IMG/VR virus record: IMGVR_UViG_3300035498_000956
DNA from: a virus
Lineage: Duplodnaviria; Caudoviricetes
Strand: one strand, 5' to 3'
Length of the DNA: 64,000 nucleotides
Position numbers and translations under genes: made by a program. Below are positions 42,800 through 48,010 of this stretch, one piece after another (position 1 is the first letter of the stretch; every line of letters begins with the position of its first letter). The notes beneath the pieces are model-generated. The model made no database searches. It saw nothing but the letters and a program-made list of their open reading frames with translations, and was not told the origin of the DNA.

Positions 42800-43861
42800 C
42801 GTATTACTCCATTATTTCTAATGGTACTGACCATTTCTTACTGTAAAAACAGCACATCGTTTCGGTTCTCATTGGCTTCGTTTCCTAAAACCAAGACGTG
42901 TATTAATAACGTCCCTACTCCCCAGCATTTCAACCTTAGGGATGGCCGATACAAGTTACTCAATTTCAATATAGGTTTTCCTATTATAAATTCTTTTAAA
43001 CACTTCTCTAGTTACTTTATCTTTAAAGTCTTGGTATAATTCATCTAAAGTTTCGGATGAAGATCTACGTCGAATTTCTCGTATTTCCTCTATACTAAGT
43101 CTTCGACCAGATCCTTTTCCAGGGTGGCTATTCCTCATCCAAGTATGAAAAGCTATATTTTCTTTGGTGAAAACATCCATATGTACCTTTGTCCAAGTAT
43201 CACCATTCCAAATTTTATGAAATCCACTTGGTCCAATTTTATCTTTATATTGTGCATACACCTCATCTTTTATCTGATGCTTATTATATGCTTCACGAAT
43301 ATTATATACATCAGCTTCAGATAATTTATGTCGTGGATGCCTTTCGCCATCTTGAATACGAAGAACCATATTACCACCTTCGTCTTCATTGTAACCATGT
43401 TTATAAGTATCATATAACTTTATATAATATATTTCCCAATCGTTTAATTCTTCTTGTGGACAAGTTTTTAATACTTCAAAATCAAAATTTTCTGTACCAT
43501 ATTTACGAAGAGCACGATAGAACGTTTTTTCATATTCTTTATTACTTTCAACATTCCAAAAAGCTCGTTGTATATGTGTTTTTCTACGTTTTTCAATATC
43601 AATACTTTGTCCAATATAACTATGTCCATTAATTTTATTTGTAAATTTATAAATTCCTATCATAAAATCACTCCTAATATAACGTGAGTGACTATTGAGT
43701 AACTCACGAGATTATCTTCTATTCTTGAAGTAGTTTTCCTAAGCCTTAACTTTAAGAAAAACGGATTACGAGAACGTTCAGACTCCCTCGTTAGCTAAGA
43801 TTTATCTTCTTAACCTCTATTAATAAAATAGATTAGATGTGTTAGGGCCAGACTATCTCTT
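42800..43861 (-). mobile_element. Group I intron 6 in gyrB carrying a GIY-YIG endonuclease
   Basis: Splits the RLKG(L)GE motif: GGG T|TA GGT; P1 GGGU/GCCC; P7 GGCCAT/ATGGTC; terminal G42800. Confidence 0.9.
42956..43663 (-). CDS. Intron-encoded GIY-YIG homing endonuclease
   Basis: MIGIYKFTNKINGHSYIGQSIDIEKR...ELNDWEIYYI...GYNEDEGG. Confidence 0.92.
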   Translation of the reverse strand: MIGIYKFTNKINGHSYIGQSIDIEKRRKTHIQRAFWNVESNKEYEKTFYRALRKYGTENFDFEVLKTCPQEELNDWEIYYIKLYDTYKHGYNEDEGGNMVLRIQDGERHPRHKLSEADVYNIREAYNKHQIKDEVYAQYKDKIGPSGFHKIWNGDTWTKVHMDVFTKENIAFHTWMRNSHPGKGSGRRLSIEEIREIRRRSSSETLDELYQDFKDKVTREVFKRIYNRKTYIEIE

Positions 43862-45521
43862 ACCCCTTTAATCTAGTTATATCACCTTTAGGTAATTCTT
43901 TTAGTTCTTTTTCGTTATAAGCAAAATATTTTTTACCTTTACTTTCAACTTTGAATAATGGAGTTACACCCCAATATACTTTACCTGCTTTAATTAATTC
44001 TGGATAATGACAATAGAGAAATGTTAAAACTAAACATACTATATCATATCCATCTTTATCCATATCCGCCATTATAACAATTTTACCATAACGTAATTTT
44101 TTAATATTAAATTTATCTCCCACGCCGCAACCAAAAGCAACGTGTAATTGTTTTACTTCCTCGTTTGCGGCAACTTTATCAGCAGGATTTTTTAAAGCAT
44201 TAATAATCTTACCTCTTAAATCAAAGCAAGCTGTAGTTTCAGAATCTCTCGCTTTAACAAGTGCTCCCTTTGCTGATTTTCCTTCACATATCATTAATTG
44301 TGAGGATTCATCATGTCTTCTGCAGTCAGCAAGCTTTTCTACTAGTATTGCTTTTTTCTTTAATTCTTTTTGAATATCATTATTACTTGATAAAATCGCC
44401 TCTCTTGCTTTATCAGCCGCAATTTCAGCTCGTTGCACCTTAACCATCATTTCAATAATTACAGAGAAATCATTAGTCTTACTAAATTCTTCTAATCCCT
44501 CTTTCATTGCTTGAGAAGTCAAAGTTCTAAGAGACGGCGTATTAATTTTAGATTTTGTTTGATTCGCAAATGATGGGTTTGCTACTTTACAATTAACCGC
44601 ATAGATTAATCCCTTTCTCATCGATTCAGGTTCTAAATTCTTTCCACTTAATTTTTTAATTTGTGTTGTAATAGCAGTTTTCGCTCCAGTAACAGGAGTT
44701 CCTCCCTCTGGACAATATAGTCCATTAACAAACACATAACTCTTTTCTTGTCCGCCAGTCCAAATAAAGGCTACTTCAACTTCATCTGTTCCATCAGTAG
44801 CAGAACAAATAATTGGTTTTTTCATTAATGGTTTTTTAGCTACATCTTTAATGAAATCTGCAATACCATTTTTAGAATAGTATTCTTGAGATTTACTATT
44901 ATCTTGATTTTTTATTATGAATTTAATACCTTTATTTAAATAGGCAATATTTTTTATTTCTTCACAAATTCTATCAAAAGAAAAAGATTCAGTTGCGTTA
45001 ATAAAAACTTTTTTATCTGGTTGGAATGTTATTAGAGTTCCGTCTTTTTCTTTTGTTGTAGTTTCTTCATAGGATTTAAGTAATCCTTCTTCAAAGATTG
45101 CTGTCGCTGATGTTCCACTTCGGTAACTCGTTACGATAAATTTGGAAGATGACATACATACTGCCGTTCCTCCGATTCCGTTCAATCCGCTACTATTTTT
45201 ATAAGAACCTTTATCAAACTTACCACCTGTATGAGATTCAGTATAAATTGCAACCAATATATTCCTATCATCTTTGATACCAAAAGGAACACCACGTCCG
45301 AAGTCACGGCATGATATCGTTCCGTCTGTCTCATCAAGTGTAAGAATGATGCTATCACCATATCCAGCGATTGCCTCATCAGTCGAGTTATTAATGATTT
45401 CCTTTAGGGCTTGATAGATGCCCTCTGTATCGTCTGTTCCAAGATACATTTGGATACGTTGACGCATCGCATTTCTGGTATCGAGGTGCTTTATATTATC
45501 TATATTATATTCTGTACTCAT
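43862..45521 (-). CDS. gyrB: DNA gyrase subunit B, exon 1
   Basis: EIINNSTDE, DFGRGVP, HTGGKF, SSGLNGIG, CEGKSA, LRGKIIN, MADMDKDG; start ATG 45521 after GGAGG. Confidence 0.95.
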
Positions 45522-45589
45522 GTGATTCCTCCTCAAGTTCTCGCGTTTATTTTCTTCTCTCTGTGTCCCTCCCCTCATTTTCTATATTT

Positions 45590-45618
45590 ATTATATCACT
45601 CTTTAGCGGCAAAGTCAA
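45590..45618 (-). promoter_or_regulatory. Sigma-A-type promoter for gyrB
   Basis: TTGACT-17 nt-TATAAT with extended TG. Confidence 0.75.
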
Positions 45619-45675: not shown

Positions 45676-46254
45676 AGGCGGCTAGTTTTGATTCCAGCCG
45701 CCTAGGTTTGAGTTATTTAATTATTTCGGAGTGTTATTTGAGCTGTTACTCAATCACTTGTTTTTATTTATAATTCACCCTATTAATGAGCTACGCTCAT
45801 CAAAAATTAGAGAAAATTGATTTTGAACTCTTTTTCTCTAACTTTACTTTTGACTTATGTTTTACACCTACTATTAAAATACTAAACGCCAAGACTTATT
45901 AAACCAGCAAAATAAAACCTTGTTAATTTAAGTTGTGCGCCTATTCGGTAGTCCATAGGCAAGCTGGTTTCTTTGTTCCTCCCCTTCTTTTACAACAATA
46001 CGTTTGTTGACGGCTTAAGTTCCCGTTTTGACGATATAAGTTACGATTAACTGTCATGGATTTTGACATTAATTCCTATAACGTGTGATTTAGAACTTCC
46101 CGCTCACAACACGATTAACAGCGTGGACTAGATAGGCATATCATCACGACATTCCTAAATAGCCTTTTTGATAACGGAGAGCTGTCTAAGCGTCCCTCTC
46201 CGCTTAACAACGAACTAAATCGACTTACGTTAAGCATTCTATATTCACTTTTCT
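45676..46254 (-). ncRNA. Candidate large structured non-coding RNA (~580 nt)
   Basis: No ORF of 60 aa or more; GC higher than neighbouring intergenic DNA; many hairpins; consensus promoter at 46261-46289 and closing AGGCGGCT/AGCCGCCT hairpin at 45676-45703. Confidence 0.65.
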
Positions 46255-46260
46255 AATATT

Positions 46261-46289
46261 ATTATACCATGTAAACTAGAAAAAGTCAA
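46261..46289 (-). promoter_or_regulatory. Sigma-A-type promoter firing into the ORF-less structured region
   Basis: TTGACT-17 nt-TATAAT with extended TG. Confidence 0.8.
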
Positions 46290-46317
46290 TCCCATTAAGA
46301 GATTGACTTAATCAAAA

Positions 46318-46830
46318 TTATTTCTTTTTCTTATGATACTTTTTCGCCGCGGAATTTACAACGATTCCTTTATCTTTTTGCTCTTGTTCCCATTTACGTC
46401 TTTTCTCTGCTCGTTCAATTTCATATGTATTGATTCTACCCTCGGCCCAAATAATTTCTCTTTTGTCGGGCTTTAATCTTGCATCATCATCAAATAAAGT
46501 TTTCCATCTATCATCAAGAAAATATTCTAGTTGATAGATTTTCCTTTTTAATATTTCAACCTTCTTTTCATCTGTCTCTGTTTCTAGACATCTATTATAA
46601 TATGCATAGTCTCTTTCAATGATTGTTGGTAAATTTTTATCAAAAACCTTATGATTATGAGCTAAATATTTTGAATCCTTTAAAATCTTATTCCAAAATT
46701 TAACACCAAAGGGACTATCATAATCATGGATTCGTTGATTTTCTTTAACTAAATTCTTTATAACGTTTTTCTTCGTTCTTTTTACTGGCTTTGGACCTTT
46801 TCTCTTTTTCTCTTGATTTATATTTTCCAT
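46318..46830 (-). CDS. Basic hypothetical protein
   Basis: AGGAGG RBS, own promoter, Lys/Arg-rich termini. Confidence 0.7.
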   Translation of the reverse strand: MENINQEKKRKGPKPVKRTKKNVIKNLVKENQRIHDYDSPFGVKFWNKILKDSKYLAHNHKVFDKNLPTIIERDYAYYNRCLETETDEKKVEILKRKIYQLEYFLDDRWKTLFDDDARLKPDKREIIWAEGRINTYEIERAEKRRKWEQEQKDKGIVVNSAAKKYHKKKK

Positions 46831-46912: not shown

Positions 46913-48010
46913 TTACTTTTGAAATAGATATAAAAATTCTAAATCATAATCTTCTTGACGTTTCTTTCTTCCCTTCTTTCCATTTGTACCAATTTTATAT
47001 TTCTTAATAAATTTAAAACCAACTTTTTCTAGCTGTTCTAACCAATCTTCTGTAATATGATAATAATTTTTACTCTCATCTGAATAGTTATTTATATCAA
47101 CAGCAAAATATCCTCCAGTCTTTAACATATCATAACTATTTTTAACAGTATTATACACATAATTATTGACCCAATTATCATAATTTGCAAATTTAATTTC
47201 ACTTTGAGTATCTTCTGTACTATAATGCTCTAAATTAAAGAAAGGCGGGCATGAAAATATAAAATCAACAGACGAATTTGGTTCTATATGATTTTCAGAA
47301 CATTCTTTATATATTTTATAACTATTTTTTCTATTGGTGCATTGTTCAATATAAGAACCTAGATTTAATAGATTATCATATGTTTCAGTACATGGTTCTA
47401 CACCTATATATGTATAATTATTTTTACTTGATAATGCTCCTAGCATTCGCGCGCCAAAACCACAAGAATAATCATAAATTACACCATTTTTTGGACAAAA
47501 ACATTCATAAATAGCTTTAGCTCTCATTGGATTATAATTTGTTGGCATTTTACCATTTAATCTTCCAACACGAATAAAAAGATTACGCATATTAGAAATT
47601 TTTTCATGTTTAAAAGCAAAACGAAAAATTGTGTGTAAACAAGTTTCATTATAAAATTGATCATATAGGCTCATGTTTTTACCTTGTGTAGATGTAAATA
47701 AATTTGGAAACATAAAATCAAGAAAGACTTGTCCAGTATATGATCTAATATCTATATTTTCAGCATTAAAATCCATTACTGGATTGCTTTTAATACATCT
47801 TAAAATTTCTTTTCTAATTCCCTCTTGATTGTAATAATAAATAGGGAAAATATTAATTTCCCTAATTTTTTTTATAACTTGATTAATAATCCTATCTTGT
47901 TCATCTCTTGTTAGTTCTTTAAAATTATCTGGAATTAAGATATTTAAATCTTCAATAATACCACTATAGGCATCTTCTTTTTCTTGTGTAGCAATATAAT
48001 CCCACTGCAT
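46913..48010 (-). CDS. DNA amino-methyltransferase (N4-C/N6-A type)
   Basis: SAM-binding IYDYSCGFGAR, YIGVEP, catalytic-type FSCPPFF, LKTGGYFAVDI. Confidence 0.85.
   Translation of the reverse strand: MQWDYIATQEKEDAYSGIIEDLNILIPDNFKELTRDEQDRIINQVIKKIREINIFPIYYYNQEGIRKEILRCIKSNPVMDFNAENIDIRSYTGQVFLDFMFPNLFTSTQGKNMSLYDQFYNETCLHTIFRFAFKHEKISNMRNLFIRVGRLNGKMPTNYNPMRAKAIYECFCPKNGVIYDYSCGFGARMLGALSSKNNYTYIGVEPCTETYDNLLNLGSYIEQCTNRKNSYKIYKECSENHIEPNSSVDFIFSCPPFFNLEHYSTEDTQSEIKFANYDNWVNNYVYNTVKNSYDMLKTGGYFAVDINNYSDESKNYYHITEDWLEQLEKVGFKFIKKYKIGTNGKKGRKKRQEDYDLEFLYLFQK

What the first reader, a model, noticed from the sequence alone, without database searches (positions are those of the whole stretch)
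45676..46254. ~580-nt promoter-driven, ORF-less, highly structured RNA candidate upstream of gyrB
Seen: a consensus sigma-A promoter (TTGACT-17-TGnTATAAT, 46289-46261) fires leftward into ~580 nt with no ORF, in an otherwise gene-dense genome. The minus-strand transcript is GC-richer than other intergenic DNA and full of helices: GCTTAAC/GTTAAGC, GGAGAG/CTCTCC, CGTGT/ACACG, AAACCAGC/GCTGGTTT enclosing GCCTAT/ATAGGC, TTAGAGAAAA/TTTTCTCTAA, ATGAGC/GCTCAT, and a closing AGGCGGCT/AGCCGCCT. gyrB has its own promoter (45590-45618), so this is not simply its leader. Known: Firmicutes phages carry large ornate RNAs (ROOL, GOLLD), and ROOL is about this size. I see no tmRNA, RNase P or group I core hallmarks. 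Inference: a ROOL-like or new class of large phage ncRNA.
Basis: partly seen in the sequence, partly recalled or inferred. Interest (0 to 1): 0.85.

Follow-up and report, generated by a model that had tools for sequence, protein, structure and literature searches.

The report
New large structured phage RNA family
The gene-free stretch upstream of this phage's gyrB encodes a shortened (~455 nt) copy of an apparently undescribed large folded RNA, which related uncultured giant phages carry as a self-contained gene and whose helices are kept by compensating mutations.

Summary
The promoter-driven region with no ORF is real, and it is a structured RNA gene. It is not ROOL or GOLLD.

**Relatives.** Homologues occur in eight distinct sequences from about five lineages of uncultured 150-180 kb phages. 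Each has its own TTGACT-17-TATAAT promoter and a hairpin plus U-run. Each lies on the same strand as its neighbours, inside the nucleotide-metabolism and replication gene block, but next to different genes. Close relatives with the same gene order lack it.

**Structure.** Ten helices (60 pairs) are 96% canonical. Thirty-six pair columns changed on both sides, against 5-13 in slid controls. A loop-loop pseudoknot shows one G-C to A-U swap.

**Not coding, not a known family.** No ORF is conserved. No Rfam family matches in three lineages tested.

- The conserved RNA in the window is 46254 to about 45800 (~455 nt) and ends at the AU-rich hairpin. The "closing" GC hairpin at 45676-45703 is not shared with relatives.
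- The window copy lacks the ~130-nt 5' domain that the other lineages have.
- One helix register was wrong.

**Function.** Unknown. I favour a trans-acting, compactly folded early RNA. A read-through leader is the main rival. This scan noted the same stretch once before on the same DNA, and not on other DNA.

The parts
46261..46289 (-). Sigma-A-type promoter of the RNA (-35 at 46289-46284, extended -10 at 46266-46261); predicted start near 46254
   Evidence: 11/12 matches, TG extension. The same promoter class occurs 11 times in the window vs 0.10 expected. Every homologue has one at the equivalent place.
45798..46254 (-). Conserved structured RNA, ~455 nt. It is a 5'-shortened member of the family, corresponding to profile positions 134-590.
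   Evidence: nhmmer profile of five lineages hits 46251-45794, E = 3.6e-94, as the only copy in the window. MFE z = -3.1. No conserved ORF.
46175..46202 (-). Helix Ha (7 bp; arms 46202-46196 and 46181-46175) with a 14-nt loop
   Evidence: 4 of 7 pair columns change on both sides among lineages.
46126..46164 (-). Helix Hb (11 bp) enclosing the hairpin Hbi (5 bp; arms 46152-46148 and 46142-46138)
   Evidence: In register in the unfitted MFFT alignment A5; 8 of 16 pairs change on both sides; includes invariant G-U pairs that fix the strand.
46084..46108 (-). Helix Hc (5 bp).
   Evidence: 3 of 5 pairs change on both sides.
46032..46083 (-). Helix Hd (2 + 6 bp closing a variable insert); its internal loop holds one arm of the pseudoknot (46046-46043)
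   Evidence: All 6 inner pairs change on both sides. The insert varies from 10 nt to about 110 nt between lineages.
46010..46026 (-). Hairpin He (4-5 bp, 7-9 nt loop), preceded by a conserved A-rich junction
45993..46009 (-). Hairpin Hf (6 bp) with a pentaloop; loop bases 46003-46000 form the second arm of the pseudoknot
   Evidence: 100% paired, 4 of 6 pairs change on both sides. The loop ACGU pairs with the Hd-loop motif; three sequences carry ACAU with AUGU instead.
45900..45971 (-). Helix Hg (8 bp; arms 45971-45964 and 45907-45900) enclosing hairpin Hh (arms 45960-45956 and 45943-45939)
   Evidence: Hg has 3 and Hh has 5 of 5 pair columns changed on both sides.
45802..45841 (-). AU-rich hairpin (arms 45841-45832 and 45816-45807) plus a five-U run (45806-45802): the probable intrinsic terminator and 3' end of the RNA
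   Evidence: It aligns with the hairpin/U-run terminators of all other lineages, which differ in sequence but keep the form. The scan missed it because it demands three G-C pairs.
45760..45784 (-). Block after the terminator that resembles the segment just before the terminator (module A')
   Evidence: The same before/after duplication flanks the terminator in L013, L015, L056, L082 and L102, and the two copies change together between L056 and L102. Judged by eye only; its role is unexplained.
45676..45703 (-). It is specific to this phage and lies outside the conserved family.
   Evidence: Not covered by the family profile; no counterpart in other lineages. No U-run follows it.
45590..45618 (-). 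Separate consensus promoter of gyrB (context, not part of the RNA)

Best explanation
The stretch is a free-standing gene for a large, compactly folded non-coding RNA of a family that I could not find described.

**How it is made (inferred from sequence).** Host RNA polymerase starts at a strong early-type promoter near 46254. It transcribes a ~455-nt RNA and mostly stops at an AU-rich hairpin plus U-run near 45800.

**What it looks like.** The RNA folds into at least ten helices joined by conserved A-rich junctions. A loop-loop pseudoknot ties two of the hairpins together. In the other lineages the RNA is about 580-630 nt and carries an extra 5' domain of three hairpins, which this phage has lost.

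**How it travels.** Promoter, RNA and terminator move as one cassette within the nucleotide-metabolism and replication block of related 150-180 kb phages. Close relatives with the same gene order lack the cassette, so it is an accessory gene.

**How it most likely works (inferred).** It acts in trans as a folded RNA particle early in infection. It may bind or sequester a host or phage macromolecule, or it may assemble with copies of itself as ROOL and GOLLD do. Terminator leakage incidentally feeds the downstream gene.

**Shown versus inferred.** Shown: homology, promoter and terminator motifs, covarying helices, and absence of coding. Inferred: actual transcription, trans action, and any partner.
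For: **Homologues**
- Eight distinct sequences, plus two near-identical variants, come from IMG/VR, ENA and Logan contigs: L001, L013, L015, L041, L052-55, L056/L066, L082, L102/L103.
- All are non-coding. Each sense frame holds 9-23 stops, and no open stretch is shared between lineages.

**Transcription signals**
- Each copy has its own consensus promoter and a hairpin plus U-run.

**Covariation**
- RNAalifold on a plain MAFFT alignment: 27 of 54 predicted pairs show compensatory change.
- My 60 pairs in ten helices: 95.8% canonical. Thirty-six columns changed on both sides, against 5-13 when the partner is slid by 1-3 positions.
- The counting tool on the unfitted alignment A5, 45 pairs: 96.0% paired. 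Twenty pairs and 53 cells changed on both sides. None of 500 shuffles reached these values, and slid controls gave 1-5 pairs.
- Invariant G-U pairs fix the minus strand.
- Pseudoknot: G-C is replaced by A-U in three sequences.
- The 99%-identical twin L001 has two helix substitutions, and both turn G-C into G-U.

**Context**
- The downstream genes all differ: gyrB, nrdG, DNA ligase, NT5C, and an ORF interrupted by TAG codons.
- gyrB here has its own consensus promoter.
- Relatives with the same gene order lack the cassette: L067-L069 and L098-L101.
- There is one copy in a complete 179,787-bp genome with terminal repeats.
- No conserved antiterminator alternative to the terminator stem was found.
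Against: - There is no expression data.
- Only about five deep lineages exist, so covariation counts are partly inherited and are not independent events. No R-scape significance could be computed.
- I chose the helices by eye, although the unfitted MAFFT and RNAalifold results agree with them.
- In the L056/L082/L102 clade the next gene (NT5C) starts about 60 nt after the terminator with no promoter between. That gene must depend on read-through, as a leader model predicts.
- A diverged copy of the segment before the terminator is kept after the terminator. This suggests the functional unit runs past the hairpin.
- The window copy lacks the 5' domain and has a divergent 3' domain, so it could be a decaying copy.
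Confidence: 0.6

Rival explanations
1. The RNA is a giant cis-acting leader or attenuator. It senses a signal, such as a nucleotide-pool metabolite, a protein or a tRNA, and sets how much transcription passes its terminator into the downstream DNA-metabolism gene.
For: - A hairpin plus U-run lies between the RNA and the next gene, on the same strand, in every lineage.
- In the L056/L082/L102 clade NT5C has no promoter of its own after the terminator.
- All downstream genes act in nucleotide or DNA metabolism.
- The duplicated module on both sides of the terminator, changing in concert, hints at alternative pairings.
Against: - Five different genes lie downstream.
- gyrB in the window has its own consensus promoter 180 nt beyond the terminator.
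- No conserved antiterminator was found. The best competing duplexes are -6 to -12 kcal/mol, against -12 to -17 for the terminator stems, and they lie at non-homologous places.
- At 450-630 nt with ten or more helices, it is far larger than any known leader.
- Relatives with the same gene order express the same downstream genes without it.
Confidence: 0.2
2. It is a divergent member of ROOL or GOLLD, the known large ornate phage RNAs.
For: - Similar size (ROOL env-120 is 659 nt).
- Phage-encoded, many helices and a pseudoknot.
- Like GOLLD, a conserved 3' part and a dispensable 5' part (bioRxiv 10.1101/2024.12.08.627333, read).
Against: - No ROOL or GOLLD hit at the gathering score, or at E <= 10 with relaxed filters, on three diverged lineages.
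- No tRNA genes in six homologue-bearing loci.
Confidence: 0.03
3. It is a pre-primer RNA of a replication origin. It would work like ColE1 RNA II or the promoter-primed T4 origins: a structured transcript forms an R-loop that RNase H processes.
For: - It sits in the replication module, next to RNase H, ligase or gyrase genes.
- Strong promoter.
- A conserved G-rich run after hairpin Hf.
Against: - No iterons, tandem repeats or AT-rich unwinding element.
- No skew inflection at the site.
- Missing from close relatives that must still replicate.
- The intrinsic terminator argues for a released RNA.
Confidence: 0.05
4. It is the decayed remnant of a gene (for example a free-standing homing endonuclease) or of a group I intron, in a genome rich in both.
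For: - The window and its relatives carry many GIY-YIG and HNH endonuclease genes and insertions that are present or absent between relatives.
- The site between nrdG and gyrB holds an HNH gene in L003.
- Rfam also misses the window's putative introns, so a negative intron search is weak evidence.
Against: - The region is kept non-coding in eight diverged sequences while base pairing is preserved by double substitutions.
- It has its own promoter and terminator.
- It does not interrupt any gene. GyrB is full-length at its N-terminus compared with relatives (96-97% coverage).
Confidence: 0.03

Closest known systems
ROOL RNA (Rfam RF03087)
   Same: Phage-encoded, about 600 nt, many helices with pseudoknots, no known protein partner, function unknown. 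Known to form an RNA-only octameric cage (bioRxiv 10.1101/2024.12.08.627333).
   Different: No sequence or structure match to the Rfam model in three lineages. Not near tRNA islands. Found only in one clade of uncultured 150-180 kb phages and not in bacterial genomes. Self-assembly is untested.
GOLLD RNA (Rfam RF01998)
   Same: Large phage RNA with a conserved 3' region and a variable or dispensable 5' region. Expressed from the phage's own signals.
   Different: No model match. Smaller (450-630 nt against more than 800 nt). No flanking or embedded tRNA.
OLE RNA
   Same: About 600 nt, an ornate multi-helix fold with highly conserved single-stranded junctions.
   Different: OLE is chromosomal, occurs in Bacillota, and travels with oap protein genes. 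Here no protein gene travels with the RNA, and there is no Rfam match.
Terminator-based riboswitches and T-box leaders
   Same: A structured RNA followed by an intrinsic terminator upstream of metabolic genes on the same strand.
   Different: Two to five times larger. It has its own promoter and moves between different downstream genes. No conserved antiterminator.
ColE1 RNA II / phage origin primer transcripts
   Same: A structured transcript of about 550 nt from a dedicated promoter, in a replication context.
   Different: No origin features. Absent from close relatives. Ends at a terminator.

Membership tests
ROOL (RF03087) | Match to the family covariance model | tested here: not met
   cmscan at gathering score on the whole window. 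E <= 10 with relaxed filters on the window copy, L015 and L013. No ROOL row appeared in any of these.
ROOL / GOLLD | Usual position beside tRNA islands in phages or prophages | tested here: not met
   ARAGORN finds no tRNA in six homologue-bearing loci. In the window the three tRNAs lie 6.5 kb away.
GOLLD (RF01998) | Match to the family covariance model | tested here: not met
   no GOLLD row.
ROOL / GOLLD (works-like) | RNA-only homo-oligomeric cage | not testable with these tools
   Needs native gels, light scattering or cryo-EM of the transcript.
Group I intron | Interrupts a host gene, with exons that join into one reading frame | tested here: not met
   The element lies between a complete 170-aa gene with its terminator and gyrB with its own promoter. 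The GyrB N-terminus is complete compared with relatives.
Group I intron | Conserved catalytic core (match to the Rfam model) | tested here: inconclusive
   No hit. However, Rfam also reports none of the putative introns that other notes describe in this window, so the negative carries little weight.
RNase P RNA, tmRNA, 6S, SRP RNA | Match to the Rfam model, or an ARAGORN tmRNA call | tested here: not met
Riboswitch / transcription-attenuation leader | Constant functional class of the regulated gene, and a conserved antiterminator competing with the terminator | tested here: not met
   Five different downstream genes. No conserved competing helix. Read-through dependence of NT5C in one clade keeps this rival alive.
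Structured non-coding RNA gene (general) | Base pairs maintained by compensatory substitutions, and no conserved reading frame | tested here: met

The most novel reading that the evidence does not exclude
This is a new class of large phage RNA with a function of its own. It could be a self-assembling RNA particle or a ribozyme, made early in infection by a clade of giant uncultured phages to capture or modify a host component. Its roughly 300-nt core would be sufficient, since the window phage has dropped the 5' domain.
Probability: 0.3. Interest if true: 0.85.

Novelty: new variant of a known kind. Interest (0 to 1): 0.72.

Why it matters
Bacterial and phage RNAs of about 600 nt with this many conserved helices are rare; OLE, GOLLD and ROOL, the classes treated in the cryo-EM study, are among the known ones. 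That study showed that all three build RNA-only quaternary structures whose purpose is unknown (bioRxiv 10.1101/2024.12.08.627333).

An unrelated family with the same lifestyle gives a new, independent case for asking what such RNAs do for phages. It is phage-borne, strongly promoted and accessory.

It comes with natural deletion variants: the window copy lacks the 5' domain, and L052 carries a ~110-nt insert. These variants mark out the essential core for structural and biochemical work.

Tried and rejected
**Searches that found nothing useful**
- Rfam at gathering and relaxed thresholds on three lineages gave only noise-level hits such as sRNA terminators.
- blastn of three lineages against 50,697 GenBank phages: no match.
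- Alternative genetic codes (TAG, TGA or TAA read through): no long frame.
- Tandem repeats or iterons: none.
- No whole genome is held for the window.

**Pattern scans**
- The metagenome pattern scan returned 30 loci. Twenty-eight were chance matches inside coding genes of gut bacteria, for example a 279-codon ORF in L031.
- All eight hits in representative genomes of 185,579 species were chance, being negative with nhmmer.
- L016, L025, L050 and 27 of 28 new loci from the last viral scan were chance.

**Neighbourhoods of relatives**
- GyrB relatives at about 70% identity (L003-L008, L067-L069) lack the RNA.

- A full-length covariance model was not built, because the length exceeds the calibration limit.

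**Ideas dropped**
- A fixed protein partner. The 170-aa basic protein is adjacent only in the window, and no neighbouring protein is shared by all lineages.
- Mimicry of the 16S rRNA 3' end by a motif in the 5' domain. The motif overlaps a covarying local hairpin and is absent from the window copy.
- Resemblance to RNase P CR-I or to box C/D. Recalled from memory and not borne out by the models.
- A common pairing partner for the duplicated module. RNAduplex gave inconsistent sites.

Full report
**1. The observation**

- The gap between a 170-aa basic-protein gene (46318-46830, minus strand) and gyrB (43860-45578, minus strand) is 739 nt. Its longest ORF is 42 aa.
- Reading TAG, TGA or TAA as sense opens nothing longer.
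- The consensus scan finds TTGACT, a 17-nt spacer and TATAAT with a TG extension at 46289-46261 on the minus strand. It finds a second promoter of the same kind at 45618-45590 in front of gyrB.
- This promoter type occurs 11 times in the window against 0.10 expected from shuffles, so it is the phage's standard strong promoter.
- G+C is 36-40% across 45900-46300, against 22-30% in the two genes upstream.
- The minus strand folds better than its shuffles: z = -4.7 over 601 nt and -3.1 over the conserved 457 nt. The plus strand gives -3.3.
- There are no tandem repeats or iterons.

**2. Not a known RNA**

- Rfam 15 at gathering score finds only three tRNAs in the window.
- With relaxed filters and E up to 10, the region gives only noise, mostly terminator-like sRNA fragments.
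- The same is true for two diverged homologues.
- GenBank phages hold nothing similar to any of three lineages.
- Two literature searches gave no description of such an RNA.

**3. Relatives**

| Source | How found | Notes |
|---|---|---|
| L001 (IMG/VR) | 99% identical twin contig | Carries the same stretch |
| L013 | Through the neighbouring 170-aa protein | Promoter, ~580 nt without ORF, and a terminator follow nrdG; shares a 67-nt block at 79% with the window |
| L015 = L017 = L024, and L041 at 98% | Patterns drawn from conserved blocks | |
| L052-L055, L051 | Patterns | |
| L056/L066 | Patterns | |
| L082 | Patterns | |
| L102/L103 | Through NT5C neighbours in Logan assemblies | |

- A profile of five lineages matches the window once, at 46251-45794 (E = 3.6e-94), over profile positions 134-590 only.
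- Most pattern hits in metagenomes, and all hits in the representative genomes of 185,579 species, were chance matches in coding DNA.
- The family therefore appears confined to these phages.
- One carrier is a complete 179,787-bp genome with terminal repeats and a single copy.
- The phages are related but diverged: GyrB is 40-62% identical and NrdD 57-75%. They have no cultured relative, with GyrA at most 36% identical to any GenBank phage.

**4. Anatomy**

- Every copy begins a few bases after a consensus promoter and ends in a hairpin followed by a U-run. The hairpin sequence differs between lineages but its form is kept.
- Full-length members are about 580-630 nt. They have a 5' domain of three hairpins, a core, and a 3' domain.
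- The window copy starts at the end of the 5' domain, so about 130 nt are missing. Its 3' domain is divergent.
- Its AU-rich hairpin (45807-45841) with five U (45802-45806) aligns with the terminators of the others.
- The conserved unit is therefore about 455 nt.
- No frame is open in common. Each sense frame holds 9-23 stops.

**5. Structure and covariation**

- RNAalifold on a plain MAFFT alignment of seven sequences predicts 54 pairs, and 27 show compensatory change.
- I traced ten helices by eye, anchored on the invariant junctions (Ha, Hb, Hbi, Hc, Hd0, Hd, He, Hf, Hg, Hh; 60 pairs).
- Across ten sequences, 95.8% of the cells are canonical pairs and 36 columns changed on both sides.
- When the 3' partner is slid by 1-3 positions, 41-45% are canonical and 5-13 columns changed (five-lineage version).
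- The counting tool on the unfitted alignment A5 was restricted to the 41 pairs that MAFFT keeps in register, plus a four-pair pseudoknot.

| Measure | Observed | Shuffles | Slid controls |
|---|---|---|---|
| Cells paired | 96.0% | 84.7% | 36-48% |
| Pairs changed on both sides | 20 | 11.3 | 1-5 |
| Cells changed on both sides | 53 | 15.3 | 2-9 |

- None of the 500 shuffles reached any of the three observed values.
- Invariant G-U pairs would be C-A on the other strand. Together with the promoters and terminators, this fixes the minus strand.
- The pentaloop of Hf (window 46003-46000) is complementary to a conserved motif in the internal loop of Hd (46046-46043). In L082, L102 and L103 the loop changes G to A and the partner changes C to U, which keeps the pair. 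This is one event, so the support is modest.
- The twin L001 differs from the window by six bases in 739. The two that fall in helices both turn G-C into G-U.
- Caveats: there are only about five deep lineages, the counts include inherited changes, the helices were chosen by eye, and R-scape was not available.

**6. Context**

The cassette always lies on the same strand as its neighbours, inside the nucleotide-metabolism and replication block, but between different genes.

| Lineage | Order of genes |
|---|---|
| Window | basic protein, RNA, gyrB |
| L013 | nrdG, RNA, an ORF interrupted by TAG codons |
| L015 | small ORFs, RNA, nrdG |
| L055 | NT5C, RNA, ligase |
| L056/L082/L102 | RNase H, RNA, NT5C |

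- Relatives with the same gene order have RNase H abutting NT5C, or nrdG abutting gyrB, with no RNA.
- No neighbouring protein is shared by all carriers.
- No tRNA gene is nearby.
- This patchy distribution is that of an accessory gene, not of a regulatory element tied to one operon.

**7. An unexplained 3' feature**

- In L013, L015, L056, L082 and L102, and more weakly in the window (45760-45784), the roughly 40 nt before the terminator reappear as a diverged copy just after it.
- Each copy can form a small hairpin. The 3' arms of both copies differ between L056 and L102 in the same way.
- In the L056 clade the second copy runs up to the ribosome-binding site of NT5C, with no promoter in between. 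That gene must therefore rely on read-through.
- I found no conserved antiterminator and no consistent pairing partner.
- This feature keeps a read-through-control model alive at about 0.2.

**8. Verdict**

- It is a real structured RNA gene of a family I could not find described (confidence about 0.9 for that much).
- I favour a trans-acting, compactly folded early RNA (0.6).
- The rivals are a cis-acting leader (0.2), an origin primer (0.05), ROOL/GOLLD membership (0.03) and a gene or intron remnant (0.03).
- The comparison with ROOL and GOLLD (bioRxiv 10.1101/2024.12.08.627333) is one of lifestyle and size only.
Nothing similar was noted on other DNA.

Noticed in passing
window 42965-43770 and about 45177; L001:4402-5239: The 99%-identical twin contig L001 lacks the window's 806-bp segment that holds the GIY-YIG ORF. 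Instead it has an 838-bp insertion with a 206-aa ORF inside gyrB, at the point matching window position ~45177. These are mobile insertions that are present or absent between near-identical phages.
   Followed up: partly
L013:6910-7803: Downstream of the RNA lies a 297-codon frame that is open only if seven in-frame TAG codons are read through. It is either a pseudogene or local TAG recoding. The window's three tRNAs (Gln-UUG, Lys-UUU, Gly-CCC) include no suppressor.
   Followed up: partly
window, whole: Rfam 15 reports no group I intron anywhere in the window, even at E <= 1. Other first-stage notes describe six introns here. Either those calls or the models' sensitivity need checking.
   Followed up: no
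window 46318-46830; L011, L013, L014: The 170-aa lysine-rich protein next to the RNA is 83-86% identical between phages whose GyrB is only 40-62% identical. This suggests recent exchange of that gene.
   Followed up: no
window 46913-48010: A 365-aa protein with no Pfam hit matches a phage DNA methyltransferase family (PHROG 498). Together with a 57-aa ORF, the basic protein and the RNA, it fills a 2.6-kb insertion between nrdG and gyrB that relatives lack.
   Followed up: partly
L067:9272-10001: A relative that lacks the RNA has a 730-nt gap without called genes just after its DNA ligase gene. This may be another non-coding element.
   Followed up: no
L052:3790-4060: Between the RNA's terminator and the ligase gene lie about 280 nt with several GC-rich hairpins and then a very AT-rich run. 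This stretch is not shared with other lineages.
   Followed up: no
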